Part shown: piece by piece, positions 1-40,000 of the stretch
Layout: each line of letters starts with the position of its first letter
How positions within the stretch are numbered: the stretch's first letter is position 1
Assembly (NCBI RefSeq): GCF_001457615.1
Contig: NZ_LN831024.1
Coordinates: 1,554,773 to 1,594,772, forward strand
DNA from: Pseudomonas aeruginosa
GTDB lineage: Bacteria > Pseudomonadota > Gammaproteobacteria > Pseudomonadales > Pseudomonadaceae
DNA: 40,000 nucleotides
Direction: 5' to 3'
Program-made: the position numbers and the translations under genes
The notes under the pieces: model-generated
Databases searched by the model: none
What the model saw: only the letters and a program-made list of their open reading frames with translations
What the model was told of the DNA's origin: nothing

Positions 1-345
1 GCGGCGAAGAACGCGATCCTGATCGTCGAGTTCGCCCGCACGCTGGAGGCCGAGGGCGCCCGTGCGCTGGAGGCGGTGGTCGAGGCTTGCCGCCTGCGCC
101 TGCGGCCGATCCTGATGACCTCGCTGGCGTTCATCGCCGGCGTGGTGCCGTTGGTCATGGCCAGCGGCGCCGGAGCGGAAATGCGCCAGGCCATGGGCGT
201 CGCGGTATTCGCCGGGATGCTCGGGGTGACGCTGTTCGGCCTGTTCCTCACGCCAGTGTTCTACGTACTGGTACGGGCACTGGCGGCGCGCCTGGAGCGA
301 CGCGCCGGCGGCAGCCTGGCGCATCTGGAGGGAGGCCGTCCATGA
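1..345 (+). CDS. mexQ: RND multidrug efflux inner-membrane transporter, C-terminal fragment (5' end outside window)
   Basis: Frame 1 reads AAKNAILIVEFA..., the conserved AcrB/Mex C-terminal region followed by TM helices. The stop TGA at 343-345 overlaps the next gene's ATG (ATGA). Synteny with opmE supports the call. Confidence 0.85.
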   Translation, partial: AAKNAILIVEFARTLEAEGARALEAVVEACRLRLRPILMTSLAFIAGVVPLVMASGAGAEMRQAMGVAVFAGMLGVTLFGLFLTPVFYVLVRALAARLERRAGGSLAHLEGGRP

Positions 346-1817
346 AGCCATACCTGCGGTCTTCGTTGAGCGCGCTGATCCTGCTGGGCGGCTGTGCCGC
401 GGTGGGGCCCGACTATGCGCCGCCGAGCGCGTCCGCACCGGCCAGCTTCGGCGCGATGCCGGCGGGTATCGATGGCGGTGGCGTGGAGATCGAGTGGTGG
501 CGCGGGTTCGACGAGCCAGACCTGGAGTCTCTGATCCAGCGGGCGCTCGCGGCGAACCTCGACATCGCCCTTGCCGGCGCGCGCCTGGACGAAGCGAAGG
601 CGCTGCTGCGCGAGAACCGCGAAGAGTTCCTGCCGCGCGGCGGCCCGGCGTTCGATTACCAGGCCCGGCGGCGCGGCGAGGTGGAAACACCGGCCGGCCA
701 GCAGCGCGACATCGAGACCTATCGCGGCGCGCTGGATGCTTCCTGGGAAATCGACCTGTTCGGCCGGGTGCGGCGCTCGGTGGAGGCCGCCGAGGCGCAG
801 GCGGGCTCGCGCGAGGCCCTGCTGCGCAACGTGCAGGCGAGCGTCGCGGCTACGGTTGCCATGACCTGGTTCCAGCTACAGGGCATCGAGGCCGAACTTG
901 CGGTGGTCCATGACATCGCCGGCAACCAGCGCGACAGCCTGGAGATGGTCGAACGCCTGGTCAGCGCCGGCTCCGCCCACGAGTTCGACCGGTTGCGCGC
1001 CGAAGCGTTATTGCACAACGTCGAGGCGGCCGTGCCCGACCTCGAACGGCGCCGCGCCGCCACCCGCAATGCGCTGGCCGTTCTCCTTGCGGAAGCCCCG
1101 CAGGCCTTCAGCCCGCCGGTCGCCCGTGCCTCCGGGGAAAGGCTGACGCTCCGCACCCTCGGGGTCGGCGACCCGGCGGGACTGCTGGCGCGTCGCGCCG
1201 ACATCGCCGCGGCCGAACGCAACCTGGCGGCCGCGACCGCACGTATCGGCGTCGAGACCGCGGGGCTGTATCCGCAGGTCGAGGTACGCGGCTCGATCGG
1301 CCTGGTCGCCGGCAATCTCGATGCTTTGGACGAGAGTGGTACGTCCTTCAACGTCCTGAACCCGGTGATTCGCTGGGCGTTACTCGACCGCGGTCGCGTG
1401 CGGGCGCGGATCGCCGCCAGCGAGGCCCGTGCGCAGGAGGCATTGATCCTCTACGACCGGACGGTGCTGCGCGCCCTGCAGGAGACCGATGATGCCTTCA
1501 ACGGCTATGGCGCTGCCGCTGACAGGCTCCGCCTGCGCCTGCTCGAGGCGACGGCCAATCGCGAGGCGGCGCGCCTGGCCCGGGAACGCTTCGTCCAGGG
1601 GGACGGCGAGTACCTGGACGTGCTCGAGGCGGAACGCTCGGACTACCTCAGCCGGCGCGCATTGAGCATCGCGCGCACCGAGCAGCGCCTTGCCGTCGTG
1701 GGTATCTACAAGGCGCTGGGTGGTGGCTGGGAAGCCTGCGCGGGGGCGCGGCGCTGTGGCGTGGCTACCGACGATACCTCTCCAGGCGTGGCACGGCAGC
1801 GCGACAGTCGCTCCTGA
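342..1817 (+). CDS. opmE: Outer-membrane efflux lipoprotein, NodT/OprM family (491 aa)
   Basis: N-terminus MKPYLRSSLSALILLGGC carries a lipobox. The protein has the two-repeat OMF architecture and its start overlaps the mexQ stop. The longer track ORF starting at 87 is an out-of-context extension. Confidence 0.9.
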   Translation: MKPYLRSSLSALILLGGCAAVGPDYAPPSASAPASFGAMPAGIDGGGVEIEWWRGFDEPDLESLIQRALAANLDIALAGARLDEAKALLRENREEFLPRGGPAFDYQARRRGEVETPAGQQRDIETYRGALDASWEIDLFGRVRRSVEAAEAQAGSREALLRNVQASVAATVAMTWFQLQGIEAELAVVHDIAGNQRDSLEMVERLVSAGSAHEFDRLRAEALLHNVEAAVPDLERRRAATRNALAVLLAEAPQAFSPPVARASGERLTLRTLGVGDPAGLLARRADIAAAERNLAAATARIGVETAGLYPQVEVRGSIGLVAGNLDALDESGTSFNVLNPVIRWALLDRGRVRARIAASEARAQEALILYDRTVLRALQETDDAFNGYGAAADRLRLRLLEATANREAARLARERFVQGDGEYLDVLEAERSDYLSRRALSIARTEQRLAVVGIYKALGGGWEACAGARRCGVATDDTSPGVARQRDSRS

Positions 1818-1823
1818 TCAGCC

Positions 1824-1850
1824 GCCGGCGGTTTCCGGCCGCCGGCCTTC
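1824..1850 (+). terminator. GC-rich hairpin just after the opmE stop (possible terminator)
   Basis: GCCGGCGG (1824-1831) pairs with CCGCCGGC (1839-1846) around a 7-nt loop. Only a weak T run (CTTC) follows. Confidence 0.35.
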
Positions 1851-2352
1851 GCTCGACTGCCTGGGTCGAGGGCCGTGCGGCGCGTCCTCCGGTTATTTGG
1901 CGAACCCCGGGAGTACGGATTGCCTGGCGCGGATCGCTCGTCCCTGTCCGCCTTATCGATAAGTCGGTTCCGAACTCTTTTTCGGTAGTTCATTCAGATG
2001 GATGAGTGAAGAGGGCAGATGGAAAGTATCTGCTCGGGACTTCAATGTTCAGAAGAGTGGGGAAGTATTACTTTCTCATTGTTCTTCAGGTACGTTCCGG
2101 CTGCCCGCCGTTTCTTATTGAACGAGGTCACTCCTGTGCCTCTGCGCTCGCGCCGCACGGAGACGTCGAATACATATCGTCGAGAGGTTCTTCAGTGGTG
2201 AGTGGAGCTGGCTGAGGCGGTATCTCGGTTGCCTGGCGGAGTTGTTCTATATGTTCGTTCTTGGCTTTGCCCGTTGTTTGAAGTTTGCGGAATAACCTCT
2301 GGAACTATTCATATGAATTTTTGAAAGTTTGGTTTACCTGAGAGATTTATGA

Positions 2353-2383
2353 GTTGACCTTGTCACGATGGCAGGACTCATGG
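2353..2383 (+). promoter_or_regulatory. MerR/CueR-type promoter-operator upstream of the copper chaperone gene
   Basis: TTGACC -35 (2353-2358), a 19-bp spacer with an imperfect dyad, and CATGGT as -10. It is 23/31 identical to the element at 2944-2974 and ends about 31 nt before the ATG. Confidence 0.6.
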
Positions 2384-2414
2384 TTCGCAGGAGTCAACAA
2401 ACCAGGAGGTTGCG

Positions 2415-2609
2415 ATGTTTTCTTTCCATATTCCGAACATGACCTGCGGCGGTTGTGCCAAGACTGTCACCCGTATCCTGCACGGCGTCGATCCCCAGGC
2501 GCGCGTAGAGACCGATCCCCCTCGGCGCGAGGCTAGGGTCGAGAGCACTCTGGACAAGCACGCATTCCTCGAGGCGTTGAGCGAGGCCGGTTATCCGGAG
2601 GGCCGTTGA
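2415..2609 (+). CDS. copZ1: HMA-domain copper chaperone (64 aa)
   Basis: MTCGGC metal-binding motif (MxCxxC) at residues 9-14, ferredoxin-like HMA length, and AGGAGG RBS at 2404-2409. Position matches PA3520. Confidence 0.9.
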   Translation: MFSFHIPNMTCGGCAKTVTRILHGVDPQARVETDPPRREARVESTLDKHAFLEALSEAGYPEGR

Positions 2610-2943
2610 GTGCATGGGCATGACGCAGGCGTAGGGTCGGATAGTAGCGTTTCGCCCAGTGCCGGCAATAGGAAAATGATTTTCATTGAAGTCTGCGCGC
2701 CATATGCCATCAATGGCGCTTGGCTATTGTGGAAAGAACGCTTTGGAATTTGTAAATCAATATTTCAGTCGGCCGCGAGGTGACAGTTATGTGAACGGAA
2801 AGAGGCGCTGACAGGAAACCCTAAAAGTTATTCTCCGATGGATTCGCAGGCCTTTAGCTCGGGGTTTTTCGCAGCGCATCCAGTGTTATCGAAGAGCACC
2901 TTTCGGCGAACTCCGTTGTCCGCCGAGAAGGCCGCTGCATTGC

Positions 2944-2974
2944 TTGACCTTGCCACCGTGGCAAGCTTTACGGT
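2944..2974 (+). promoter_or_regulatory. MerR/CueR-type promoter-operator of the 5-gene biosynthetic operon
   Basis: TTGACC -35 (2944-2949), 19-bp spacer, TACGGT -10. A perfect dyad CTTGCCAC-C-GTGGCAAG (2949-2965) lies inside the spacer, as in CueR/MerR operators. Confidence 0.7.
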
Positions 2975-3009
2975 CGCCCCGCACAACAACAAAAACAAGG
3001 GTGATCCAA

Positions 3010-4047
3010 ATGACTTCAAATCCGTTACAGCAATGCTGCAGTTCTTCCTCCGATATGAATATCCGTTCCCAGCGGACAATGTCGGAACCTGCCCGAAATG
3101 CATCGGCTCTCCTGGCTGAAGCCTTGAAACCCGGTGCCTCCCTGGACCAGATCACGCTCGCGCTCGAGGCGATTCTCGCGGTCACGGCCAAAGGCCTGGG
3201 CGGCGATGCTTCGGCTTACGCGCAGTACCAGGCGTTGCTCCTGGAACTGCACGTAGGCAGCGATCCGCATACGGAGCCGACCCGCCGCTGGATGGCGAGC
3301 CAGGTCTACCTGGTCGAGGATCGTTTCGCTCCCGAGCCGGCCGGTTTCAGCGCCGTCCCGGTGGAGGAGTTCCGCAAGAAGGTCGACGCCGAGATCGAGG
3401 CGCGCAGCCGGGTGCGCCATCCCATGTCGGTCCACCTGTTCCAGGGCACGCCGCCGGTCGAGGACGTGCGCTTCTTCCTGGAACACCATTGGGTCCGTTC
3501 CTACAACTTCTACAGCCTCCTGGCGGAGCTGGCCTTCCGCTTCGAAAACATCGAGGACGCCTCGGTGTTCTACCGCAACCTCTACGGCGAGGCCGGGGCG
3601 GAGACGCCGGAGCGCTCGCACCCCGCGTTGCTGTCCCACCTGATGACCTACTTCGACATTCCGCTGCGCATCGATTTCCCGGCGCTGCATCCGCTGGAGA
3701 AGGCCTACCTCAACAACCGTATCCGTTGCGTGCGGCACACCGATGTCGCCTGGGGCCTTGCGCTCCTGTACGCGGTCGAGTCGGTGAGCTGCGTCAACCA
3801 CCGGCGCATCTACGAACTCCTGCAGCGCCTGGGCGTGCCCGAGCAACCCAGCGAGTTCCATCGCCTGCACGGCACCCAGGACGAGATCGATACCGAGGAG
3901 ATGTGGGCGCTGATCGCCAAGTTCGCGCCGAGCGAAGACTTCCAGCGCCAGTTCATGCAGTCGCTGGCGCGCCACTTCGAAATCAACCGGGCCTACTTCG
4001 ACCTGCTCTGGGAGCAGATGCAGGCGAATTCCCTGGCCATGGCCTGA
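3010..4047 (+). CDS. flcE: Heme-oxygenase-like diiron oxidase/oxygenase (HDO) family protein, paralog 1 (345 aa)
   Basis: Helical protein with dispersed E/H ligand patterns (YGEAG..ERSHP, AVES, HRLHG..DEID), reminiscent of TenA/PqqC/CADD-like iron enzymes. RBS AAGGGTG lies before the ATG at 3010. Paralogous to the next gene; position matches PA3519. The gene-letter assignment is from memory. Confidence 0.8.
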   Translation: MTSNPLQQCCSSSSDMNIRSQRTMSEPARNASALLAEALKPGASLDQITLALEAILAVTAKGLGGDASAYAQYQALLLELHVGSDPHTEPTRRWMASQVYLVEDRFAPEPAGFSAVPVEEFRKKVDAEIEARSRVRHPMSVHLFQGTPPVEDVRFFLEHHWVRSYNFYSLLAELAFRFENIEDASVFYRNLYGEAGAETPERSHPALLSHLMTYFDIPLRIDFPALHPLEKAYLNNRIRCVRHTDVAWGLALLYAVESVSCVNHRRIYELLQRLGVPEQPSEFHRLHGTQDEIDTEEMWALIAKFAPSEDFQRQFMQSLARHFEINRAYFDLLWEQMQANSLAMA

Positions 4048-4079
4048 TGCCTATCCAGAACAAGAACAAGGAGTACAGG

Positions 4080-5066
4080 ATGAATACCCGCAATTTTTCC
4101 CTGCCGCAGTTGCAGAACCTGCCCATCGAAGAAGCACGCATCGTTGCCGATGCGCTGGCCGTCCACGCTACTTCCCGCCAGATCGATAGCGCCGCGAGCA
4201 AGCTGGCCGCGCTGGCCGAGGCAGGGCTCAAGGGCGACCGCCAGGCCTATGCCGCGTACCAGCAGTTGCTCTACGTCCTTTCGTTGAGCGACGACGTGGC
4301 GACCGCCCAGACCCGGCGCTGGCTGGCCCGGGCGATCTATCGCGTCGAAGAGCGTTTCATGCCCGCCGCCGATCTTTCCAGGGCGTTGTCCGAGGAGGAT
4401 TTCCAGAAGCGACTCGAACAGGAAATCGCCGCGCAGTCCCGCGAGCGGCACCCGATGTCGCAGTACGTGTTCTCCGGCTCGGCCTCCCGCGCGCAGCTCC
4501 AGGTGTTCCTCCGTCACCAGTGGTTCCGCACCTTCCGCCTGTACCGCGATGCGGCCGACCTGTTGGTCAACCTGACCGATGTGGACGAGGCCGCGGCGCT
4601 CGCGCGTTACCTCTATGGCGAGTTGGGCGAGGAAGACGAAAAGGGTTCGCATCCGCGCCTGCTGGCCAAGCTGCTCGAGGCCATCGGCCTTGAGGCGGAC
4701 TTCCAGGCCGTGTCGACGATGCCCGAGGAAATCGCCTACCTGAACAATCGCGCCCGTGCCTTCCGGCATGCCGAGGTCGGTTGGGGGCTGGCGGTGTTCT
4801 ACATCACCGAACTGGTCGTGCCGGGGAACCACGAAAAGCTCTATCGGGCCCTGCTCCAGGCCGGCCTGAGCGAGGACCAGGCGGAGTACTACAAGGTCCA
4901 CATCAGCCTCGTACCGCCGCGGGCCAAGCGCGAATGGCAACTCATCGCGCGGCGGATTCCGGACGTGCAGTTCCAGAATGCGTTCCTGACCTCGCTATCG
5001 CAGCACTTCCGTGTGGAAAGGGCCTATTACGACGCGATCTGGGAAGAGATGCAGAGCGTCAAGTGA
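4080..5066 (+). CDS. flcD: Heme-oxygenase-like diiron oxidase/oxygenase (HDO) family protein, paralog 2 (328 aa)
   Basis: Collinear similarity to 3010-4047: RHPMSQYVF vs RHPMSVHLF, YGELGEEDEKGSHPRLL vs YGEAGAETPERSHPALL, AYLNNRARAFRH vs AYLNNRIRCVRH. AAGGAG RBS at 4068-4073. Confidence 0.8.
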   Translation: MNTRNFSLPQLQNLPIEEARIVADALAVHATSRQIDSAASKLAALAEAGLKGDRQAYAAYQQLLYVLSLSDDVATAQTRRWLARAIYRVEERFMPAADLSRALSEEDFQKRLEQEIAAQSRERHPMSQYVFSGSASRAQLQVFLRHQWFRTFRLYRDAADLLVNLTDVDEAAALARYLYGELGEEDEKGSHPRLLAKLLEAIGLEADFQAVSTMPEEIAYLNNRARAFRHAEVGWGLAVFYITELVVPGNHEKLYRALLQAGLSEDQAEYYKVHISLVPPRAKREWQLIARRIPDVQFQNAFLTSLSQHFRVERAYYDAIWEEMQSVK

Positions 5067-5096
5067 CTTCCACCGGGACAAAGCGAGCACTCGAAA

Positions 5097-6530
5097 ATGC
5101 CAAGTCACATTACGGAATCCCGTATACACGGGGGCGCCTACTCGTCCCCGGCATTCGCCGCGATCTTTTCCGATACCAACCAGGTGCGGAGGTGGCTGGA
5201 TGTCGAGCGAGCCTTGGCGGCGACCCAGGCCGAGATGGGCATCATCCCCCACGAGGCGGCGCGGGAGATCGACCGCGCCGCCCAGGTGGAGCGCTTCGAC
5301 CTCACCCAACTGGGCCGCGAAAGCCTGGAGACAGGGCACCTACTGGTGCCTACCATCCGCGCCCTGGCGAGGTCGTGCGAGGGTAGCTGGGGGGAGTACG
5401 TGCACTATGGCGTGACCACCCAGGACATCCTCGACACCGGGCTGATGCTGCAGGTCAAGGAAGCCTGGGGCCATGCGCTCGGGCTCCTGCACTCGATCCG
5501 TGGCCATCTGCTGGCGCTTGCCCTGCGCCACCAGCACACGCCGATGGTTGCACGCACCCACGGGCAGCAGGCGCTGCCCACGACCTTCGGCTACAAGGTC
5601 GCCGTCTGGGTGGATGAAATCGACCGTCACCTGGCGCGCTTCGACGAAGCGCGCGAACGCGTCCTGGTCGGCAACCTGACCGGTGCCGTGGGAACCCTGG
5701 CGTCGTTCGGCGCCCAGGGCTTCGAGCTACAGCGGCGAACCCTGGCCAGGCTTGGCCTCGGCGCGCCGTCGACCAGTTGGCACAGCGCCCGGGACCGGGT
5801 GCTGGAGGTTGCCGGGTTGCTGGTCCAGGTGTCGGTGACGCTGGGCCGGGTGGCGAACGAGATCTACCACCTGCAGCGCAGCGAAATCGACGAGGTACGC
5901 GAGGGCAGCCGGCCGGGACAGGTGGGCAGCAGCACCATGCCGCACAAGCGGAACCCGTCGTCGGTCGACCTGGTCAGCGCGCTGTCGCGGCTGGTGCGGG
6001 CACAGATGGTGGCGCTCACCGATGCCGCGTTCCAGTTGCACGAGCGCGACGGCACCGCCTGGCGCATCGAGTGGGCGGCGTTGCCGGAGCTGTTCGTCTA
6101 CGCCGGCGCCTTGCTGACCCGCATGGAGGCGGTGCTGGCCGAGGGGCTCGAGGTGCGCGAGGAACGCATGCGCGCCAACCTCGACCTGCTGGGTGGGCTG
6201 ATCCTGTCGGAGCGGGTCATGCTCGCGCTGGCGGGGCAGTTCGGCAAGCAGACCGCCCACGAACTGCTCCATGAGATAACCCAGGCCTCCCAGCGGCAGG
6301 GCGTTCCGTTCCGCGAGGCGCTGCTCGGGCAGCCAAGGTTGCGCGGCTGTTTCAGCGCCGAGGCGCTCGAAGAACTGCTCGACCCCGTCGGCTACGTCGG
6401 CCTCGCCGCGGAGATGGTCGACCTGGTCGCCGGCAAACCACGAACCGGCGCGTCGGGCGACAGGCCCGAAGGCGCCGCCTCTTCCCAAGGAAATCCCGGT
6501 CAGTCCCAGTACGTGATGGAGGATAGGTGA
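5097..6530 (+). CDS. flcC: Fumarate-lyase superfamily enzyme (adenylosuccinate lyase / 3-carboxymuconate cycloisomerase-like), paralog 1 (477 aa)
   Basis: Superfamily signature GSSTMPHKRNP is present, with a conserved N-terminal block WLDVERALA..Q. Position matches PA3517. Confidence 0.85.
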   Translation: MPSHITESRIHGGAYSSPAFAAIFSDTNQVRRWLDVERALAATQAEMGIIPHEAAREIDRAAQVERFDLTQLGRESLETGHLLVPTIRALARSCEGSWGEYVHYGVTTQDILDTGLMLQVKEAWGHALGLLHSIRGHLLALALRHQHTPMVARTHGQQALPTTFGYKVAVWVDEIDRHLARFDEARERVLVGNLTGAVGTLASFGAQGFELQRRTLARLGLGAPSTSWHSARDRVLEVAGLLVQVSVTLGRVANEIYHLQRSEIDEVREGSRPGQVGSSTMPHKRNPSSVDLVSALSRLVRAQMVALTDAAFQLHERDGTAWRIEWAALPELFVYAGALLTRMEAVLAEGLEVREERMRANLDLLGGLILSERVMLALAGQFGKQTAHELLHEITQASQRQGVPFREALLGQPRLRGCFSAEALEELLDPVGYVGLAAEMVDLVAGKPRTGASGDRPEGAASSQGNPGQSQYVMEDR

Positions 6531-7981
6531 TGGATGCTGAATCGCTGGAAATGCTTGCCCGTTCCTCGTGCACCGCGCATCCGCAGAGCTTCGGCGGCGC
6601 ACCGGCCGAGTCGTCCTGCAAGCACGAACACAGTCACATCGTTGACTCTAAAACCCATGGCGGCGGCTACGCCGGTCCGGTGAGCCGCCGGATCTTCTGT
6701 AGCCACTGCCGCCTGCAACGCTGGCTCGACGTGGAGGCGGCGCTGGCGCTGGCGCAGGCCGATGTCGGCGTCATTCCGCCCGAGGCGGCGCTGGAGATCG
6801 CGAAGGCCGCCAGGCTTTCGGCCGTCGACCTGCAGCAGATCGCCGACGGCGTGGCCAGCACCGGGCACTCGCTGATGCCCCTGCTGGGCGCGCTGCAAAG
6901 GAACTGCAGCCCCAGCGCGCGCGAGTACGTGCATTTCGGCGCGACCACGCAGGATATCCAGGACACCGCGCAGTCCCTGGAAATGCGCGATGTGCTGGAT
7001 GAAACGGAGCGGGCGCTGGACATCCTCCTGGACCGGCTCTCGGTGCTGGCGAGCGGGACCCGCAATGCGCTGATGGTCGCCAGGACCCACTCGATCCCGG
7101 CGTTGCCAACCACCTTCGGGCTGAAGGTGGCCGGCTGGATCGACGAGTTGCTGCGTCACCGCGAACGCCTGGGCGAGGCGCGCAAGCGGATCCTGGTGGT
7201 GCAACTGTTCGGCGGCGTGGGCACGATGGCCGCCTTCGGCGACGAGGCCATGCTCCTGCTCGAAAGCTTCGCGCGGCGGCTGTCGCTGGACGTGCCGCTG
7301 GCGGGTTGGCACGTGTCCCGCGACCGGGTTACCGAGTTCGTCAGCACCCTGGCCATGGTCACCGCGTCCCTGGCGCGGATCGCCGACGAGATCCGCACCC
7401 TGAACCGCTGGGAGATCGGCGAGCTGGAGGTGGGCTGGACGCAGCAGCAGATCGGTAGCAGCACCATGCCCCACAAGCGCAATCCGGAAGGCTGCGAGCA
7501 GGTCGTGGTGCTGGCCCGGCTGGCCAAGGCCCAGGTCCTGCTCGCGTTGGACGCCATGATCCTCGAGCACGAGCGGGACTACCGCGGCACGCGCCTGGAA
7601 TGGTGTGCGGTGGCGGACGTTTCCCACTATGCGCTGATGGCGCTGTCGCTGCTGACCGACACCATCGACGGGCTCACGGTCCACGACGAGACCATGGCGC
7701 GGACGGCGAATGCATACAGCGATGCGATCTGTACCGAGGCGTTCGTCTTCGAGATGGCCAAGCAACTGGGCAAGAGCAGCGCTTACGAAATCATCTTCGA
7801 GATCACCCAGGCCTGCCAGCGCAAGCGGATTCCGATGCGCCAGGCGCTCGAGTCGGATCCGCGGGTGGGCGCCGTCATGCCGAAGGAAACCCTGGCCAGG
7901 CTGTTCGAGCCGCGGACCCATCTCGGCATGGCCGGGACCATCGTCGACAAGGTGCTGGACAAGGTCGCCAGCCACCACTGA
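6527..7981 (+). CDS. flcB: Fumarate-lyase superfamily enzyme, paralog 2, with Cys/His-containing N-terminal extension
   Basis: GSSTMPHKRNP signature. The start (GTG 6527 or ATG 6530) overlaps the upstream stop TGA at 6528-6530. About 33 extra N-terminal residues relative to the paralog include SSC...SSCKHEHSH. Confidence 0.85.
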   Translation: MMDAESLEMLARSSCTAHPQSFGGAPAESSCKHEHSHIVDSKTHGGGYAGPVSRRIFCSHCRLQRWLDVEAALALAQADVGVIPPEAALEIAKAARLSAVDLQQIADGVASTGHSLMPLLGALQRNCSPSAREYVHFGATTQDIQDTAQSLEMRDVLDETERALDILLDRLSVLASGTRNALMVARTHSIPALPTTFGLKVAGWIDELLRHRERLGEARKRILVVQLFGGVGTMAAFGDEAMLLLESFARRLSLDVPLAGWHVSRDRVTEFVSTLAMVTASLARIADEIRTLNRWEIGELEVGWTQQQIGSSTMPHKRNPEGCEQVVVLARLAKAQVLLALDAMILEHERDYRGTRLEWCAVADVSHYALMALSLLTDTIDGLTVHDETMARTANAYSDAICTEAFVFEMAKQLGKSSAYEIIFEITQACQRKRIPMRQALESDPRVGAVMPKETLARLFEPRTHLGMAGTIVDKVLDKVASHH

Positions 7982-8030
7982 ATCACCCGCCGCCAGAGGC
8001 GGCGGTACTGCACATCAACGGAGAACAAGA

Positions 8031-9104
8031 ATGACAAAGGCTAACGAGATCGAAACCGCGAAGGTCAAGCAGTTTTCAGCACGGATCATGGAGGACTACG
8101 GCAATACCCTGCGCGGCGCGATGCTCTACATCGGCGACCGCCTGGGGCTGTTCAAGGCGCTCGCCCATGGCCAATGGGTGACCCTGGAAGAGCTGGCGCA
8201 GCAGACCGGCTACACCACCCGCTACCTGCGCGAATGGCTGGGCAGCATGGTCACCGGCAACTACCTGGCCTACGATCCGCAGAGCAGGAGCTATCGGTTG
8301 CCGGCCGAGTTCGTCCCGGTGCTCGCCGACGAGGACTCGCCTTATTTCGCCGGCGGGATCATCCAGTTGAGCGTGCCCTTCGTGAGCATGGCGCCGAAGA
8401 TCATCGAGGCCTTCCGCTGCGGCGGCGGTTGCCCCGAGGAATCCTTCCCGCTGGAAACCTGGGAAGGCATGGAGCGCATGACCATGCCCTGGTACAAGCA
8501 CTTCCTCGTGCAGCACTGGATTCCTTCGCTGGATGGCGTCAAGGAAAAGCTCCAGGCGGGTGGCAGCGTGCTCGATTTCGGCTGCGGCAGCGGGCTGGCC
8601 GCGATCATGATGGCCAAGGCGTTCCCCGAAGCCCAGGTCTATGGCTGTGACTTCCACGCGCCGTCCATCGAACGCGCGCGGGCGAACGCCGAGGCCGCGG
8701 GGGTCGGCGACCGGGTGCGCTTCGAGGTCAGCGATTCCGATGCGCTGGCGGGCAAGAAGTTCGACTTCGTCACGACCTTCGTGGTCATCCACGACGCGAC
8801 CGACCCGCAGCAGATGATGAAGGACCTGCGCGAGTCGACCGCCGACGATGGGACCTACCTGATGGTGGAACTCAACCTGTCGCAGGAACTGCACGAGAAC
8901 ATGAACCTGTTCGGTCGCGTGATGTACCCGCAGAGCACGCTGTATTGCATGACCTGTTCGCTGTCCCACGGCGGCGAGGGCCTCGGCGCCTTCATGGGCG
9001 AGGACCGCGCGCGGCAGATGGCCGAGGCCGCCGGCTTCAGTCGCTTCCGCAAGGTGCCTTCGGAGTGGCCGCCGCTGCCGGCGCTGTTCGAACTGCGACC
9101 CTGA
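8031..9104 (+). CDS. flcA: Class I SAM-dependent methyltransferase with N-terminal winged-helix-like domain (357 aa)
   Basis: Motif I VLDFGCGSG and an acidic motif-II-like GCDFH. RBS GGAGAA lies before the ATG at 8031. The upstream part of the track ORF (7710-8030) overlaps flcB and was rejected. Confidence 0.85.
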   Translation: MTKANEIETAKVKQFSARIMEDYGNTLRGAMLYIGDRLGLFKALAHGQWVTLEELAQQTGYTTRYLREWLGSMVTGNYLAYDPQSRSYRLPAEFVPVLADEDSPYFAGGIIQLSVPFVSMAPKIIEAFRCGGGCPEESFPLETWEGMERMTMPWYKHFLVQHWIPSLDGVKEKLQAGGSVLDFGCGSGLAAIMMAKAFPEAQVYGCDFHAPSIERARANAEAAGVGDRVRFEVSDSDALAGKKFDFVTTFVVIHDATDPQQMMKDLRESTADDGTYLMVELNLSQELHENMNLFGRVMYPQSTLYCMTCSLSHGGEGLGAFMGEDRARQMAEAAGFSRFRKVPSEWPPLPALFELRP

Positions 9105-9144
9105 GGTTGCACGCCCGGAGTCGCCTGGCGCGGCTCCGGGGCGA

Positions 9145-9171
9145 GGGTGGCGTCCGCGGCGGACGCCACCC
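9145..9171 (+). terminator. Perfect 11-bp GC hairpin downstream of the operon (terminator-like, no U-tract)
   Basis: GGGTGGCGTCC (9145-9155) and GGACGCCACCC (9161-9171) flank a 5-nt loop. No T run follows, so intrinsic termination is uncertain. Confidence 0.4.
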
Positions 9172-9543
9172 GCAGCCCGGTGTGTCCGGGACCGCCGCAG
9201 TCGTTTCGTCCCTGTCTGCCTCGGCCTGAAGTCTTCGCTGCGAAGACCCTCGTCCTTATATAAGCAGGGGAGTTGCTGCGAGCAGAGGTCGAGAGCCTGC
9301 GGCACTCGTTCAAGCGAGCGATGTGGCTGTCAGGAAACCTTCCCCTGTTACCGAATGGAGCAATGTTGCTCCTTGTGTGTGCAACAACGCCCCACTTCCC
9401 GGAAGCCTGGCGAACCGCGTGAAAACCGCTCGGAGCGCCTTTCGTCGCAGGATTCCTCGGTAATTCTCCGCGCTTTAATTCAACTCTCTGATTTTAAAAG
9501 TTTAATACTCGGAACAAGGCTGTTTCGCCGGTGAACTTTCATC

Positions 9544-9616: not shown

Positions 9617-10468
9617 ATGAGAGCGACGTCGTTGAGCATCCTCACTTCCGAGCATTCGCTACCTGTAGCCGCTCCTGCGGATAGCCGTCTCGAAATCGAA
9701 TTCCGCGGCGTCGCCAAGCATTTTCCGGGCCGCGGCAAAAGCGCGGCGACCCTCGCGGTGCAGGGGCTCGACCTGGCCATCCGCCGCGGCGAGGTGGTGT
9801 CCATCATCGGGCCGTCCGGTTGCGGCAAGAGCACCCTGCTGAACATGGGGGCGGGTCTCTACGCACCCAGCGAAGGCGAGGTGCGGGTCGGCGGCGAGCG
9901 GGTCAGCGGTCCGGTACGCAAGGTCTCCTTCATGTTGCAGAAGGACCTGCTGATGCCCTGGCGCAGCATTCGCCGCAACATCGAGCTGGGCCTGGAGATC
10001 GACGGTCGCGCGGCCGGCGAACGGCGCGCCATCGCCGAGGAAATGCTGGAGAAGTGTCACCTCGCCGGTTTCGCCGAGCACTATCCGTTCCAGCTTTCCG
10101 GCGGCATGCGCCAACGCGCCGCCCTGGCCCGAACCCTGGCCACCGACCCGCAGGTGCTGTTCCTCGACGAGCCGTTCTCGGCCCTCGACGCGCAGACCAA
10201 GATGATCCTCCAGCAGGACCTGGCGCGGATGCTCTGCGAGCAACGCAAGACCGCGCTGTTCATTACCCACGACCTGGTCGAGGCGATCGCCATGTCCGAT
10301 CGCATCCTGGTGATGAGCGCGCGGCCGGGCACCATCGTCGAGGAGATCGAGGTCGGCCTGCCGCTGCGCGACAACCCGCTGGAGCGCCGCAAGCTGCCGG
10401 AGATCGGGCCGCTGGTCGGGCGCCTGATGACCCTGCTGAAAGTGGGCGAGAGCGCCGAGCTGCACTGA
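9617..10468 (+). CDS. ABC transporter ATP-binding protein (NitT/TauT-type)
   Basis: Walker A GPSGCGKST, signature LSGGMRQR and Walker B LFLDEPFSALD. Confidence 0.9.
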   Translation: MRATSLSILTSEHSLPVAAPADSRLEIEFRGVAKHFPGRGKSAATLAVQGLDLAIRRGEVVSIIGPSGCGKSTLLNMGAGLYAPSEGEVRVGGERVSGPVRKVSFMLQKDLLMPWRSIRRNIELGLEIDGRAAGERRAIAEEMLEKCHLAGFAEHYPFQLSGGMRQRAALARTLATDPQVLFLDEPFSALDAQTKMILQQDLARMLCEQRKTALFITHDLVEAIAMSDRILVMSARPGTIVEEIEVGLPLRDNPLERRKLPEIGPLVGRLMTLLKVGESAELH

Positions 10469-24509: not shown

Positions 24510-25730
24510 ATGATGAAAACCCATCCGCTGTTCCCCGTACTTCTTCTTTCCAGTCTTTCGGCCCTGGCCGCTTCGCCGCCGTCCGAGGCGTCGAAGACCG
24601 GCAAGCCTTTCCCGCATGTCGGCCTGCGCAGCGACGACGGGCGCAGCAGCCTGGATATCGGCGGCGCGCTGCGGGTGAACTACCGCGACGAACACTGGAA
24701 GAGCACGGAAAACAATGGCCGCCTACTGTTCGATACCTTCCGCCTGGATATCCAGGCAACCCACGAGGACTTCTTTTCCGACCTCGGCTACTGGTTCCAG
24801 GACGACGGCAAGCGGGCCATCGACCGCGGCTTCGTCGGCTATCGCTTCAGCGACCTATCCAGCCTGCAATTGGGCGCGCCGTTCAAGCCGTTCGGCCTGG
24901 AGCCCTATCCGCAGTTCGGCTGGAGCTACCACATCCCGTTCTTCCTGGGCTACGGGGTCAGCGCCGGCAGCGGCGCCAAGTACGTCTACAAGGACGCCGA
25001 CTGGCATGTCCAGGCCGGCTATTTCCCACGGATGCTGCCGGGCGGTGTGCGCTATTCGCCGGAAGTCGGCCGTTATACCGACCTGGACGACAACGCGGTC
25101 GCGGCGATTCATTCGCGGCAGGACAACGAGAAACGTGACCAGCTCAACCTGCGGGTCGCCCGTAATCTCGCCGGAGATGGCTGGAAAAGCGAGTTGGGCG
25201 CGTCGCTGGCGGCCTCGCGCCTGTACAACGCGACCACCAGGGACGATGGCCGCTACTGGGCGGCGGGGTTGCATGGCGTGCTCAACGCCGGCAACTGGAC
25301 GTTCAGCGGCGAAGCCATTCGCTACGCTTTCGATCCGAAGAACCCGGCGGGCGTCAGCGACGACGTGGTACTCATGGGTACCAACGGCCTGACCCCGGCC
25401 TACCTGATGGCCGCCAGGGCCTCGGTGGCGTCCTTCAACGTCGCCTACGACGTGCCGACGCCGAACCTGGGCATGCTGAAGAAGCTGCGCTTCTACAACG
25501 ACTACAGCCGCATGTTCAAGGACAAGGCCGGCTGGGACGACTCGCAGATGTATACCGCAGGGGTGCAGTTCTTCGCCTTGCCGATCATGGGCTGGCTGGA
25601 CTTCACCTGGGGACGCAACGCCAATCCCTACGGCGGTGCCGAGAGCGGCACGGGCTTCAGCAGCACCAGTTCGTCGCGCAGCAACGAGTGGATATTCCGC
25701 ACCAACCTGAACATCGGCTACTACTTCTGA
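24510..25730 (+). CDS. Outer-membrane beta-barrel protein (porin-like), 406 aa
   Basis: Signal peptide MMKTHPLFPVLLLSSLSALA. Alternating amphipathic strands rich in Y/G/N/D. C-terminal ...NLNIGYYF ends in an aromatic residue, an OMP signature. Confidence 0.8.
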   Translation: MMKTHPLFPVLLLSSLSALAASPPSEASKTGKPFPHVGLRSDDGRSSLDIGGALRVNYRDEHWKSTENNGRLLFDTFRLDIQATHEDFFSDLGYWFQDDGKRAIDRGFVGYRFSDLSSLQLGAPFKPFGLEPYPQFGWSYHIPFFLGYGVSAGSGAKYVYKDADWHVQAGYFPRMLPGGVRYSPEVGRYTDLDDNAVAAIHSRQDNEKRDQLNLRVARNLAGDGWKSELGASLAASRLYNATTRDDGRYWAAGLHGVLNAGNWTFSGEAIRYAFDPKNPAGVSDDVVLMGTNGLTPAYLMAARASVASFNVAYDVPTPNLGMLKKLRFYNDYSRMFKDKAGWDDSQMYTAGVQFFALPIMGWLDFTWGRNANPYGGAESGTGFSSTSSSRSNEWIFRTNLNIGYYF

Positions 25731-32709: not shown

Positions 32710-33147
32710 TCACTGCAACCTGGCCCGCTCCAGCAGCGCCCAGGCCAGGGCGAAGGTCGGTTCACCATCCTCGCTCTGCTCGCTGGCGCTGACCACGATC
32801 CACCGCGCGCCCGCCGGCTTGGCTGCCCACAGGCGGTATTCGCTGCCTGCGGAGCCGCCGTCGTCTTCCTCTACCTTGTAGCGCGCCTCGCCGTCGCCCA
32901 GGCGCCTGCTCGCCAGGTCGGGCGGGGGCGGCGCGTCCTGGCGCTGGACCTCCAGTTGGCGTGGGTTGCGCAGCTTGCCGCCTTCGTCGAAGCGGAAGCC
33001 CTCGGCGCTGCGCCGCGCGTCGAAGCCGACGGGGCGCTCCACCACCAGGCCGTTCGGGTGGGTCAGGGTCTTGTCGAAGTCCACCCCGGACTCCGCGGTG
33101 CAGGCCAGCAGGGCGAGGCTGGCGAGAATCAGGGCGACTGTCTTCAT
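32710..33147 (-). CDS. tsi3: Periplasmic immunity lipoprotein for Tse3 (145 aa)
   Basis: Lipoprotein signal MKTVALILASLALLAC. ATGA overlap with tse3 indicates translational coupling. Sequence and position match PA3485. Confidence 0.88.
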   Translation of the reverse strand: MKTVALILASLALLACTAESGVDFDKTLTHPNGLVVERPVGFDARRSAEGFRFDEGGKLRNPRQLEVQRQDAPPPPDLASRRLGDGEARYKVEEDDGGSAGSEYRLWAAKPAGARWIVVSASEQSEDGEPTFALAWALLERARLQ

Positions 33148-34370
33148 GGGAACCTCATTCCAGGGTCGAGGAAGGTGGCGTAGGCATCGTCGACGAACAT
33201 CGGCCAGCCCGGCGACAGGTTGTCGTCCCAGGGCCGCGAGGTGTATTCCGAGGCCAGCGCGCGGACATTGTCCCGCGGCCAGTTGCGCGGATTGCCGGCG
33301 TAGGCGCGGAGATCGATGGAGGGAAATGCGCCGCGGGTCTTCGGCAACTTGCGCAGGTCCTGTTGCGACGCGAGGTTGGCGACGTAGCGGATGTAACGGG
33401 CGGTGGCGAAGATGTTGAATTCGTCGGAAGCCAGCAGGGTGGCGACCGCCTTGCGCGACAGACCGCGGCGCACCGGCTGGCCGAGCAGGTCGGTGAACAG
33501 CTCGTACTTGATCGCGGTGGAGACCACCACCTGGCCGAGGCCGATGGAGGTGTTGGCGCTCTTGATGCTGACTGCCGCCTGATAGTCCTTGGCGTCTTCG
33601 TCGCGGGTCTGGTCACGCTGCTCGGCGAGGATGATCGCGCCGATCAGTTGCGGCGTCAGGTCGTACTTGCGCGCGGCCGCGGACATGACCTTGGCCCGCG
33701 ACGGCGGGTTGCCCGGATAGGCGTCGGGGAACAGCGTGCTGATCGGCTGGCCGACCAGCGTCTGTGCCTGGTTCAGCTTGTCTTGCGGCGAAAGCTGGCT
33801 CAGGTAGGCGCCCAGGTCGCCGAGCGGGTTGCTGTACTTGGTGACGGTCGCCGGGTCCTTGTTGAGCAGCTTGAGCTGGTCGCCGAAGGCAATGGACGGC
33901 AGGTCGGTCGGATTGACGCCGGTGGCGCCGACCCCGCTGAACGGACCCTGGATCGCCTGGCTGGCCACCCCGGTGGCGCCGGCCGCGGCGAAGCCCAGGC
34001 GGCCAGCGGCGTCGGCGAGGTCGGCGCAGATGTCGAAGAAGGTGATGGTGGGGAAGTAGATCCAGTTGTCGGTCTGGGTGCCCAGGGGATTGTTGATCAG
34101 GCTGCGGATCAAGGCATTGCGTGCCTGGTAGCGCTGCATGGTGGTGCGCCCGGCGATGCTGGCGATCAGCGAGCGCGCCAGTTCCGGCGGGCCCACCCGC
34201 TGGAACAGCTTGATCAGCGAGCCGCTCTTGTCGAGTGCGGCGATGGTCGCATCGGGCACGTTGTCGTTGCGGATCGCGGCGATCACCCGGCGGGCTTCCT
34301 GGCGGGTCACCTGCCAGTCGTCCCAGCTATAGGAAATCAGTGACTCGATCAGGTCGCTGGTGGCGGTCAT
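33144..34370 (-). CDS. tse3: Type VI secretion exported effector 3, peptidoglycan muramidase (408 aa)
   Basis: MTATSDLIESLISYSWDDW... with a lysozyme/SLT-like region (IILAEQRDQ...SIGLGQV). AGGAGG RBS. Length and position match PA3484. The 701-aa track ORF is an upstream extension. Confidence 0.9.
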   Translation of the reverse strand: MTATSDLIESLISYSWDDWQVTRQEARRVIAAIRNDNVPDATIAALDKSGSLIKLFQRVGPPELARSLIASIAGRTTMQRYQARNALIRSLINNPLGTQTDNWIYFPTITFFDICADLADAAGRLGFAAAGATGVASQAIQGPFSGVGATGVNPTDLPSIAFGDQLKLLNKDPATVTKYSNPLGDLGAYLSQLSPQDKLNQAQTLVGQPISTLFPDAYPGNPPSRAKVMSAAARKYDLTPQLIGAIILAEQRDQTRDEDAKDYQAAVSIKSANTSIGLGQVVVSTAIKYELFTDLLGQPVRRGLSRKAVATLLASDEFNIFATARYIRYVANLASQQDLRKLPKTRGAFPSIDLRAYAGNPRNWPRDNVRALASEYTSRPWDDNLSPGWPMFVDDAYATFLDPGMRFP

Positions 34371-34423
34371 CGGTCTTCCTCCTTGTGAGTTGCCAGGCCC
34401 GTCAGGCGGTCCTGGGCGAAAGA

Positions 34424-39379: not shown

Positions 39380-39603
39380 ACCGTTAGCTTTCGAATTGGC
39401 TAAAAAGTGTTCATCGGCTACGCGTGAACACGGACGCCAATCGTTTGCGCAGGCCGATCTGCAAGACCCACACAAGCCCCTCGCCTGAAGGGGTACGCAT
39501 CCGCCGTGGCTGGTCCGCGCGGATGGCCGCTGAGTTACTTGTCTGCCGTTCGAACAATAAGAACGAACTCTACGTAATGCCGGGATACCCGTGGCAGCGA
39601 TAG

Positions 39604-40000
<397 letters not shown>

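What the first reader, a model, noticed from the sequence alone, without database searches (positions are those of the whole stretch)
2353..9104. Copper-switched 5-gene operon (2 HDO + 2 fumarate-lyase paralogs + methyltransferase): compact metallophore/antibiotic pathway (fluopsin C-type)
The sequence shows a MerR/CueR-type promoter with a 19-bp spacer and a perfect dyad. It drives five tightly spaced genes whose family combination makes no sense in primary metabolism. They are two heme-oxygenase-like diiron enzymes, two adenylosuccinate-lyase-like enzymes carrying GSSTMPHKRNP, and a SAM methyltransferase. The operon sits beside a copper chaperone gene under the same kind of promoter and beside an RND efflux operon. 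From memory, this gene order is PA3519-PA3515 of P. aeruginosa. It was reported in 2021 as flcE-D-C-B-A, which makes the copper-bound thiohydroxamate antibiotic fluopsin C from cysteine. In that pathway a lyase adds Cys to fumarate. The HDOs carry out decarboxylation, N-hydroxylation and carbon excision. The second lyase releases fumarate and the methyltransferase finishes the product. It is therefore the most remarkable system in the window but, to my knowledge, already described. The gene-letter mapping is from memory and may be off.
Basis: partly seen in the sequence, partly recalled or inferred. Interest (0 to 1): 0.9.

Follow-up and report, generated by a model that had tools for sequence, protein, structure and literature searches.

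The report
Known fluopsin C copper-antibiotic operon

Summary

**Anatomy**
- A MerR/CueR-type promoter lies at 2944-2974: TTGACC, a 19-bp spacer, TACGGT, with a 17-bp perfect palindrome inside.
- It precedes five co-oriented genes: two heme-oxygenase-like oxidases (3010-4047, 4080-5066), two adenylosuccinate-lyase-family enzymes (5097-6530, 6530-7981) and a SAM methyltransferase (8031-9104).
- Upstream lie copZ1 (2415-2609), with a similar but weaker promoter (2354-2384), and the end of mexQ plus opmE.

**Identity**
- All six proteins occur letter-for-letter in P. aeruginosa genomes.
- The second oxidase is 328/328 identical to crystallised FlcD (PDB 3BJD/8W1Q).
The FlcC/FlcB assignment rests on gene order.
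- The E-D-C-B-A order recurs in 25 genomes of five genera.

**Corrections**
- FlcD uses mononuclear iron, not diiron.
- The copZ1 dyad is imperfect.
- Pathway order is B, E, D, C, A, not gene order.

**Verdict:** already known, low interest.

**Minor leads**
- The first ~12-15 codons of FlcE match a separate short ORF in other Pseudomonas.
- A conserved non-coding block at 2672-2810 contains a Fur-box-like palindrome.
- Lysobacter has a MerR-YHS regulator gene next to its flc cluster.

The parts
1..345 (+). 3' end of mexQ (RND inner-membrane permease, PA3522 by position)
   Evidence: The frame-1 translation ends at TGA 343-345. It matches the last ~92 positions of the multidrug RND permease models: 146 bits, against 57 bits for the CusA/CzcA type.
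342..1817 (+). opmE (outer-membrane factor of MexPQ-OpmE, PA3521 by position), 491 aa, lipoprotein signal LLGGC
   Evidence: The ATG at 342 overlaps the mexQ stop. It scores 304.9 bits against TIGR01845 NodT, above the cut-off of 210. It has the Pfam OEP domain.
2354..2384 (+). CueR-type promoter of copZ1: TTGACC, 19 nt, CATGGT; imperfect dyad GACCTTGTCA-cga-TGGCAGGACT
   Evidence: 4 mismatches to the PaCueR box consensus. The -35 hexamer and left half-site are conserved in P. paraeruginosa.
2415..2609 (+). copZ1 (PA3520), 64-aa HMA-domain copper chaperone with MTCGGC motif
   Evidence: Pfam HMA. Exact match to Q9HY89_PSEAE. An AGGAGG Shine-Dalgarno sequence precedes the ATG.
2672..2810 (.). 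Conserved non-coding block of unknown function between copZ1 and the flc promoter; includes the palindrome AATGA-TTT-TCATT (Fur-box-like) and GCCAT-CA-ATGGC
   Evidence: It is about 80-90% identical to P. paraeruginosa while the flanks diverge. It holds the best Fur-consensus match in the window, 14/19. The short ORF inside it is not conserved. No Rfam hit.
2944..2974 (+). CueR-type promoter of the flc operon: TTGACC, 19 nt, TACGGT; perfect 17-bp palindrome at 2949-2965
   Evidence: 2 mismatches to GACCTTGNCA-N3-TGNCAAGGTC, derived from the published copZ2 and mexPQ CueR boxes. It is identical in P. paraeruginosa except for the central base. PA3519 is listed with a CueR binding site in PMC5145850.
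3010..4047 (+). [quoted passage not shown]
   Evidence: Pfam HOASN + Haem_oxygenas_2. Exact P. aeruginosa protein. It is 40% identical to FlcD. Only ATG 3010 has a Shine-Dalgarno sequence. Function from PMC11363339.
4080..5066 (+). flcD (PA3518), mononuclear-iron heme-oxygenase-like dioxygenase, 328 aa: excises the oxime carbon as formate
   Evidence: 328/328 identical to PDB 3BJD/8W1Q. V278 and R281 are present. Function from PMC11363339.
5097..6530 (+). flcC (PA3517 by order), aspartase/fumarase-superfamily lyase, 477 aa: C-S cleavage that releases fumarate and the thiohydroxamate
   Evidence: Lyase_1 + ADSL_C. NF006500 scores 810.8 bits. SS-loop GSSTMPHKRNP. Function.
6530..7981 (+). flcB (PA3516 by order), aspartase/fumarase-superfamily lyase, 483 aa: adds L-cysteine to fumarate (first pathway step)
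   Evidence: Lyase_1 + ADSL_C. NF006500 scores 839.5 bits. It is 43% identical to FlcC. The ATG overlaps the flcC stop and GGAGGA lies upstream. Function.
8031..9104 (+). flcA (PA3515), winged-HTH + class I SAM methyltransferase, 357 aa: N-methylation to N-methylthioformohydroxamate
   Evidence: Pfam HTH_65 plus methyltransferase domains. Exact match to Q9HY94_PSEAE. The nearest solved structures are TnmJ and the Rv2258c type. Function.
9105..9180 (+). GC-rich stem-loops directly after the flcA stop; likely operon terminator or 3'-end stabiliser, with no U-tract
   Evidence: 22-nt arms, 86% complementary. The 96-nt fold is -68 kcal/mol, z = -4.2 against shuffles.

Best explanation
The region is the flc (fluopsin C) biosynthetic operon of Pseudomonas aeruginosa, flcE-D-C-B-A = PA3519 to PA3515. 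Upstream lie copZ1 (PA3520) and the end of mexPQ-opmE.

**Regulation (partly inferred).**
1. The -35 and -10 hexamers are 19 bp apart, too far for RNA polymerase alone.
2. The MerR-family sensor CueR sits on the dyad that spans the spacer.
3. When loaded with Cu(I), CueR reshapes the DNA so that transcription starts.
4. The site is shown in the sequence. CueR regulon membership comes from the literature. The distortion mechanism is inferred from MerR-family precedent.
5. One mRNA then carries all five genes. flcC and flcB overlap by one base, and a strong hairpin follows flcA.

**Chemistry (published, not tested here).**
1. FlcB adds L-cysteine to fumarate.
2. FlcE oxidatively decarboxylates and N-hydroxylates the adduct to an oxime.
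3. FlcD, a mononuclear-iron dioxygenase, excises the next carbon as formate.
4. FlcC cleaves the C-S bond. This regenerates fumarate and frees the thiohydroxamate.
5. FlcA N-methylates it with SAM.
6. Two such ligands chelate copper to give fluopsin C.

Export by the adjacent, co-regulated MexPQ-OpmE pump is proposed in the literature but not demonstrated.
For: **Domains.** The domain content of all five genes and their neighbours fits.

**Identity.**
- All six proteins are exact matches to P. aeruginosa sequences seen on more than 1000 contigs.
- FlcD is 328/328 identical to crystallised FlcD.
- The FlcD-specific V278 and R281 are present.
- The SS-loop GSSxxPxKxN is present in both lyases.

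**Position.** Gene order relative to copZ1 and opmE matches the published numbering. An rhlA thermometer at 39537-39646 places the window in the expected chromosomal neighbourhood.

**Promoters.** There are two CueR-type promoters against 0.02 expected by chance. They match the published PaCueR boxes of copZ2 and mexPQ. PA3519 is listed with a CueR binding site.

**Conservation.** The E-D-C-B-A order is kept in 25 loci from Pseudomonas, Pseudoduganella, Serratia, Lysobacter and Archangium. A TTGACC + 19-nt promoter is kept in the 19 loci from Pseudomonas, Serratia and Pseudoduganella.
Against: - Nothing in the sequence contradicts this reading.
- Copper induction, CueR binding and the metabolite cannot be tested with these tools.
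- The primary papers (Patteson 2021, Thaden 2010, Teitzel 2006, Quintana 2017) were not held. Their results are taken from later papers that cite them.
- Which lyase gene is FlcB and which is FlcC rests on the flcA-E = PA3515-3519 numbering plus gene order, not on a per-protein accession.
- FlcC scores just above the curated cut-off of the purB model TIGR00928 (331.3 against 326.2). This explains the database name 'adenylosuccinate lyase'.
Confidence: 0.97

Rival explanations
1. The two lyases and two PqqC-like proteins are primary-metabolism enzymes (PurB/ArgH paralogues, PQQ or folate-related), and the clustering is incidental.
For: Databases name these proteins 'adenylosuccinate lyase' and 'PQQ biosynthesis protein C'. 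FlcC just passes the TIGR00928 purB cut-off, 331.3 against 326.2.
Against: - The best model for both lyases is the separate subfamily NF006500, at 811 and 840 bits.
- The E. coli-type purB model scores 91 against a cut-off of 446, and argH scores 71 against 279.5. FlcB falls below the TIGR00928 cut-off.
- PqqC and CADD models score 20-30 bits against cut-offs of 200-240.
- The five genes stay together in the same order across five genera.
- FlcD is identical to an enzyme with a demonstrated different reaction.
Confidence: 0.01
2. The operon is present but decayed or silent in this strain.
For: None found. Start-codon annotations of FlcE differ between records at 345, 330 and 322 aa.
Against: - All five ORFs are full length.
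- Their exact sequences are shared by more than 1000 P. aeruginosa contigs.
- The promoter, leader and Shine-Dalgarno sequence are intact and almost identical to P. paraeruginosa.
Confidence: 0.02
3. This concerns physiological role and is not exclusive of the best explanation. The operon may be mainly a copper-detoxification device, with the antibiotic effect secondary. Copper would be sequestered as fluopsin C and pumped out by the neighbouring MexPQ-OpmE.
For: - The operon is co-located with copZ1 and mexQ-opmE.
- It shares CueR control with them.
- PMC13653836 argues for this model and notes that mexPQ deletion increases copper sensitivity.
- In Lysobacter the cluster sits next to a MerR regulator with a YHS domain, a domain that by general knowledge is associated with copper-handling proteins.
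Against: - Export by MexPQ-OpmE is explicitly unvalidated.
- OpmE adjacency is not conserved in many flc-bearing genomes.
- Fluopsin C is a potent broad-spectrum antibiotic.
Confidence: 0.5

Closest known systems
flcABCDE (PA3515-PA3519) of P. aeruginosa PAO1, the fluopsin C gene cluster (Patteson et al. 2021, as cited in PMC11363339, PMC10989515 and PMC13653836)
   Same: The gene content, order, neighbours and promoter type are all the same. FlcD is 100% identical to the crystallised protein. CopZ1 and FlcA are identical to the PAO1 UniProt entries.
   Different: Nothing differs within the operon. From memory of PAO1 numbering, the wider window lacks the vgrG4b-pldA-tli5 genes between tsi3 and rnfA. 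The strain is therefore probably not PAO1 itself.
CueR/MerR-type activated promoters (E. coli PcopA; P. aeruginosa copZ2 and mexPQ promoters)
   Same: The -35 TTGACC overlaps the left half-site. The spacer is 19 bp. The dyad has 10-3-10 geometry, GACCTTGNCA-N3-TGNCAAGGTC.
   Different: The right arm of the flc site departs from the consensus at two outer positions (AAGCTT instead of AAGGTC). The copZ1 site departs at four positions.
XcbD 3-sulfopropionylcysteine synthase of bacterial coenzyme M synthesis (NCBIfam NF052536)
   Same: It is the second-best NCBIfam model for both lyases, at 477 and 447 bits. It is another adenylosuccinate-lyase-family enzyme whose named product is a cysteine conjugate.
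   Different: Both scores are below the 600-bit cut-off. The pathway and the partner genes are different.
Dinuclear heme-oxygenase-like oxidases (UndA, BesC, SznF, CADD)
   Same: They share the Pfam PF14518 fold. There are weak NCBIfam hits to CADD and BesC.
   Different: FlcE and FlcD carry an extra N-terminal HOASN domain. FlcD uses a single iron and lacks the last two ligands.

Membership tests
flc fluopsin C operon (flcABCDE) | Five genes (methyltransferase, two adenylosuccinate-lyase-family lyases, two heme-oxygenase-like oxidases) in one co-oriented block next to copZ1 and mexPQ-opmE | tested here: met
   Domain scans. The gaps between genes are 32, 30, -1 and 49 nt.
flc fluopsin C operon (flcABCDE) | Sequence identity to the experimentally characterised P. 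aeruginosa proteins | tested here: met
   FlcD is 328/328 identical to PDB 3BJD/8W1Q. All six proteins are exact P. aeruginosa sequences, two of them tied to PAO1 UniProt entries.
flc fluopsin C operon (flcABCDE) | FlcD-subgroup metal motif E-H-x-H-V-R (V278, R281) | tested here: met
   V278 and R281 are read from the alignment numbering. The motif is defined in PMC11363339.
flc fluopsin C operon (flcABCDE) | SS-loop GSSxxPxKxN in both lyases | tested here: met
   GSSTMPHKRNP is present in both. The signature is described in PMC13411527.
flc fluopsin C operon (flcABCDE) | Copper- and CueR-dependent transcription | not testable with these tools
   The sequence-level site is present. Regulon membership is taken from the literature.
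flc fluopsin C operon (flcABCDE) | Production of Cu-bis(N-methylthioformohydroxamate) | not testable with these tools
   Known only from the published work cited.
MerR/CueR-activated promoter | -35 and -10 hexamers separated by 19 bp | tested here: met
   2944-2974 and 2354-2384. The 16-18 nt sigma-70 scan finds neither site.
MerR/CueR-activated promoter | Dyad operator across the spacer that matches known P. aeruginosa CueR boxes | tested here: met
   The flc site has 2 mismatches to GACCTTGNCA-N3-TGNCAAGGTC and the copZ1 site has 4. The reference boxes are from PMC12833586. There are 2 hits against 0.02 expected.
MerR/CueR-activated promoter | Physical binding of CueR and Cu(I)-dependent activation | not testable with these tools
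   PMC5145850 lists a CueR binding site for PA3519.
True PurB / ArgH (primary metabolism) | Best hit and score above the curated cut-off of the equivalog models | tested here: not met
- The best model is NF006500, at 811 and 840 bits.
- E. coli-type purB: 91 and 82 bits against a cut-off of 446.
- argH: 71 and 66 bits against 279.5.
- TIGR00928 purB: FlcC 331.3 (marginally above 326.2), FlcB 306.6 (below).
Diiron heme-oxygenase-like oxidase | Full six-ligand dimetal motif | tested here: not met
   This applies to FlcD, whose last two ligand positions are V278 and R281. Mononuclear iron is shown crystallographically and spectroscopically in PMC11363339. FlcE keeps D291 and D294 at those positions, but its nuclearity was not assessed here.

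The most novel reading that the evidence does not exclude
The flc operon may have regulatory layers beyond CueR that have not been described, as far as the papers I could read show.

1. **Leader mini-ORF.**
   - A Shine-Dalgarno sequence, a start codon and about 12 codons sit directly behind the promoter and are conserved. The motif is M-x-S/T-x-x-L-Q-Q-C/R-x-x-S; in the window it reads MTSNPLQQCCSSSSD.
   - This stretch is fused to FlcE in P. aeruginosa. In seven other Pseudomonas genomes it is a separate ORF of 24-64 codons.
   - It might act as a leader peptide that tunes translation of a cysteine-consuming pathway.
2. **Upstream block.** A conserved block at 2672-2810 with a Fur-box-like palindrome might add iron input. 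That would be plausible because FlcE and FlcD need iron.

Both could equally be evolutionary leftovers or unrelated sites.
Probability: 0.1. Interest if true: 0.4.

Novelty: already known. Interest (0 to 1): 0.15.

Why it matters
The system itself is notable: a five-enzyme route from cysteine to a copper-chelating antibiotic, switched on by copper, with two unusual oxidases and fumarate used as a recyclable handle. But it was described in 2021 and FlcD was dissected structurally in 2024, in this same species, so finding it again here adds no new biology.

The practical value of this check is fourfold:
- It fixes the gene-to-letter mapping and the exact coordinates.
- It corrects the diiron assumption for FlcD.
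- It flags that public annotation still mislabels these proteins ('adenylosuccinate lyase', 'PqqC', a 367-aa FlcE that starts inside the promoter).

The side observations are cheap experimental leads on how the operon is controlled and exported: the leader mini-ORF, the conserved upstream block, and the MerR-YHS regulator in Lysobacter. Export remains an open point in the literature.

Tried and rejected
- **Papers not held.** I tried to read the primary papers: Patteson 2021 by DOI and PMC id, Thaden 2010, Quintana 2017 and Teitzel 2006. None is held, so I relied on later open papers.
- **Rfam.** The gathering-threshold search of the whole window found only the rhlA thermometer. A permissive search of 1800-3100 found nothing, so no known RNA element sits in the two AT-richer intergenic regions.
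- **Sigma-70 and terminator scan.** It found no canonical promoter at either CueR site and no internal terminator on the + strand.
- **Short ORF in the conserved block.** I considered that 2672-2810 encodes a small protein (a 35-codon ORF from ATG 2677, inside the 57-codon ORF). I rejected this because an indel shifts the frame in P. paraeruginosa.
- **Fur box.** The site at 2672-2690 is the best match in the window at 14/19. However, 9% of local shuffles reach 13/19, so it is kept only as a lead.
- **Alternative starts.**
  - flcD at ATG 4047: rejected, because the crystallised protein starts at MNTRNF and AAGGAG precedes 4080.
  - flcE at TTG 2944 (367 aa, as annotated in one genome): rejected, because that codon is the -35 hexamer itself.
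- **Genome scan.** It did not return P. aeruginosa itself. I therefore used P. paraeruginosa as the nearest comparator.
- **Covariation.** Covariation in the long leaders of four fluorescens-group loci gave only weak support for a hairpin.


Full report
**1. The observation**

*flc promoter.* It reads TTGACC (2944-2949), a 19-nt spacer (2950-2968) and TACGGT (2969-2974). A perfect 17-bp palindrome, CTTGCCAC-C-GTGGCAAG, lies at 2949-2965.

*copZ1 promoter.* A second promoter of the same build lies 590 bp upstream. It reads TTGACC (2354-2359), 19 nt and CATGGT (2379-2384), but only 5 of 10 arm positions are complementary.

*Chance.*
- A pattern that captures the shared core hits exactly these two places in 40 kb, against 0.02 expected from dinucleotide shuffles.
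- The repeat finder independently pairs the two 31-mers at 74% identity.
- A standard sigma-70 scan with 16-18 nt spacers finds neither. This is expected for promoters whose hexamers are deliberately too far apart.

**2. The genes**

Start codons were chosen from Shine-Dalgarno context and homology.

| Gene | Coordinates | Length | Start context | Domains |
|---|---|---|---|---|
| flcE | 3010-4047 | 345 aa | AAGGGTGA upstream | HOASN + Haem_oxygenas_2 |
| flcD | 4080-5066 | 328 aa | AAGGAG upstream | HOASN + Haem_oxygenas_2 |
| flcC | 5097-6530 | 477 aa | – | Lyase_1 + ADSL_C |
| flcB | 6530-7981 | 483 aa | ATG overlaps the flcC stop; GGAGGA upstream | Lyase_1 + ADSL_C |
| flcA | 8031-9104 | 357 aa | GGAGAA upstream | winged-HTH + class I SAM methyltransferase |

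- Both lyases carry GSSTMPHKRNP. This is the SS-loop signature of the aspartase/fumarase superfamily.
- The two oxidases are 40% identical to each other and the two lyases 43%.
- copZ1 (2415-2609) is a 64-aa HMA-domain protein.
- The window opens with the C-terminus of a multidrug-type RND permease (1-345). Its stop overlaps the start of a NodT-family outer-membrane lipoprotein, 342-1817.
- A very stable GC-rich hairpin follows flcA at 9105-9180: -68 kcal/mol over the 96 nt folded, z = -4.2.
- The next gene, an ABC-transporter ATPase, starts at 9617.

**3. Identity**

- All six proteins occur as exact sequences in P. aeruginosa, each on more than 1000 contigs. CopZ1 and the methyltransferase are the UniRef representatives Q9HY89_PSEAE and Q9HY94_PSEAE.
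- The second oxidase is 328/328 identical to PDB chains 3BJD and 8W1Q. PMC11363339 identifies these as P. aeruginosa FlcD.
- The window also ends with the rhlA 5'-UTR thermometer at 39537-39646.
- In between it carries an IclR regulator, SDR, TPP decarboxylase, aspartate and aldehyde dehydrogenases, a Rieske oxygenase, nth, the rnf genes, tsi3/tse3, metG and dcd.
- The window is therefore P. aeruginosa chromosome, read in the opposite direction to PAO1 gene numbering.

**4. Mapping to published names**

- Open papers state that flcABCDE = PA3515-PA3519, copZ1 = PA3520 and mexPQ-opmE = PA3521-PA3523. FlcA is the methyltransferase, FlcB and FlcC the lyases, and FlcD and FlcE the oxidases.
- The window order is opmE, copZ1, oxidase, FlcD (anchored by the crystal structure), lyase, lyase, methyltransferase.
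- The FlcC/FlcB assignment rests on that numbering, not on a per-protein accession. I rate it about 0.9.

**5. Mechanism**

*Shown in the sequence:* the 19-bp spacer promoters with a dyad that matches the published P. aeruginosa CueR boxes of copZ2 (GACCTTGACAccaTGTCAAGGTC) and mexPQ. The flc site has 2 mismatches and the copZ1 site has 4.

*From the literature:*
- PA3515-3519, copZ1, copZ2, copA1 and mexPQ-opmE form the CueR regulon and respond quickly to copper.
- PA3519 is tabulated with a CueR binding site.

*Inferred from MerR-family precedent:* Cu(I)-CueR reshapes the over-long spacer so that RNA polymerase can open the promoter.

*Chemistry, from PMC11363339 and PMC13411527:*
1. FlcB adds cysteine to fumarate.
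2. FlcE decarboxylates and N-hydroxylates to an oxime.
3. FlcD excises the oxime carbon as formate.
4. FlcC cleaves the C-S bond, returning fumarate.
5. FlcA N-methylates.
6. Two ligands bind copper.

Gene order is therefore not pathway order. The lyase that acts first is the second lyase gene.

**6.

- FlcD is not a diiron enzyme. Crystallography, Mossbauer and EPR show a single iron, and the last two ligand positions are valine and arginine. The window protein has V278 and R281, where FlcE has D291 and D294.
- Only the flc promoter has a perfect dyad.
- Export by MexPQ-OpmE is a hypothesis, not a finding.

**7.

- The lyases are not PurB or ArgH orthologues. Their best model is a separate subfamily, NF006500, at 811 and 840 bits.
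- E. coli-type purB scores 91 and 82 bits against a cut-off of 446. argH scores 71 and 66 bits against 279.5.
- FlcC does edge over the TIGR00928 purB cut-off, 331.3 against 326.2. This probably explains the persistent database name 'adenylosuccinate lyase'.
- The second-best model for both is XcbD. This is another enzyme of the family whose named product is a cysteine conjugate, but both scores are below its cut-off.

**8. Comparative evidence**

- A scan of one genome per species with an FlcE alignment returned 31 loci.
- In 25 of them all five genes are present in the order E-D-C-B-A. These come from Pseudomonas, Pseudoduganella, Serratia, Lysobacter and Archangium.
- copZ1 and opmE adjacency is variable.
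- Six myxobacterial loci (five Nannocystis, one unclassified Myxococcales) have only a 40%-identical oxidase.
- A TTGACC + 19-nt promoter precedes the operon in the 19 Pseudomonas, Serratia and Pseudoduganella loci. It is absent in Lysobacter and Archangium.
- In Lysobacter enzymogenes a MerR-family regulator with a C-terminal YHS domain is encoded immediately upstream. A different 10-3-10 dyad precedes flcE there.
- A MerR-type regulator next to the cluster in Lysobacter suggests that metal-responsive control is kept even where the CueR box is absent.

**9. Side observations in the window**

- *Leader and start.* From the -35 hexamer to the ATG at 3010 the sequence is almost identical to P. 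paraeruginosa; only the central palindrome base and one leader base differ.
- *FlcE N-terminus.*
  - The Shine-Dalgarno sequence, the ATG and about 12 codons directly behind the promoter are conserved across Pseudomonas.
  - In the window and in ten other loci this ORF continues as FlcE.
  - In seven loci it stops after 24-64 codons, and flcE restarts downstream with its own Shine-Dalgarno sequence.
  - Public annotations of P. aeruginosa FlcE vary at 345, 330, 322 and even 367 aa.
- *Conserved block.* The stretch 2672-2810 is conserved while its flanks are not. It holds the best Fur-consensus match of the window at 14/19, but that is statistically weak. No known RNA family matches there.

**10. 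Verdict**

- The system is already known in this very species, so interest is low (0.15).
- The most novel reading not excluded is an extra regulatory layer, a leader mini-ORF and/or iron input. I give it about 0.1 probability.

Noticed in passing
window 3010-3054; L002-L006, L014, L016 just downstream of their promoters: The first 15 codons of the 345-aa FlcE (MTSNPLQQCCSSSSD) match a separately terminated ORF of 24-64 codons that follows the same promoter, leader and Shine-Dalgarno sequence in seven other Pseudomonas genomes. There flcE restarts 60-250 nt further on. Public annotations of P. aeruginosa FlcE disagree on the start, at 345, 330, 322 or 367 aa.
   Followed up: partly
window 2672-2810: A non-coding block between copZ1 and the flc promoter is 80-90% conserved with P. 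paraeruginosa while its flanks diverge. It contains AATGA-TTT-TCATT, the best Fur-box-like match in the window at 14/19; however, 9% of local shuffles reach 13/19. It also contains GCCAT-CA-ATGGC. The short ORF inside is not conserved, and there is no Rfam hit.
   Followed up: partly
L018 8974-9672 and about 9806-9828 (Lysobacter enzymogenes): The gene directly upstream of flcE encodes a MerR-family regulator with a C-terminal YHS domain. There is no TTGACC CueR box. A dyad, GTCGCGACCG-cat-CGGTCGCGGC, recurs in related form in other Lysobacter loci. This suggests a dedicated regulator for the cluster.
   Followed up: partly
L002 9663-9920, L003 9664-9930, L004 9607-9928, L006 9608-9930: The long 5' leaders of the fluorescens-group flc operons share a conserved stretch about 40 nt before the flcE ATG and a predicted hairpin with a few compensatory changes. 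With only four sequences the support is weak. P. aeruginosa lacks this leader.
   Followed up: partly
window 9105-9180: A very stable GC-rich double hairpin lies right after the flcA stop, without a U-tract: -68 kcal/mol over the 96 nt folded (9105-9200), z = -4.2. It is probably the 3' end of the operon transcript.
   Followed up: partly
window 5097-6530: FlcC scores 331.3 bits on the purB equivalog TIGR00928, whose cut-off is 326.2. Automated annotation therefore calls a C-S lyase of antibiotic synthesis 'adenylosuccinate lyase'.
   Followed up: yes
protein P0106 (metagenome): A 411-aa relative of FlcE carries an N-terminal HMA (CopZ-like) domain fused to HOASN + HDO. This is either a true copZ-flcE fusion or a gene-calling artefact.
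   Followed up: no
L026-L031 (five Nannocystis loci and one unclassified Myxococcales MAG): FlcE-like oxidases at about 40% identity occur without FlcD, FlcC, FlcB or FlcA within 10 kb. They presumably belong to a different pathway.
   Followed up: no
window 1818-2353: A 536-bp spacer with about 50% G+C lies between opmE and the copZ1 promoter. It is poorly conserved with P. paraeruginosa and has only short unconserved ORFs.
   Followed up: partly
window 24510-25730: A 406-aa ORF has coding-like GC3 (0.86) and sits in the lowest-G+C part of the window outside the flc upstream region (0.58). It has no Pfam or NCBIfam match.
   Followed up: partly
window 32710-34400 (- strand): tsi3 and tse3 (type VI immunity and muramidase effector) lie directly beside rnfA. 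From memory of PAO1 numbering, vgrG4b-pldA-tli5 would sit between them, so the strain probably lacks that island.
   Followed up: no
window 39537-39646: The rhlA 5'-UTR ROSE-like RNA thermometer (Rfam RF02758) scores 136.8 bits. It is a known element and useful as a positional marker.
   Followed up: no
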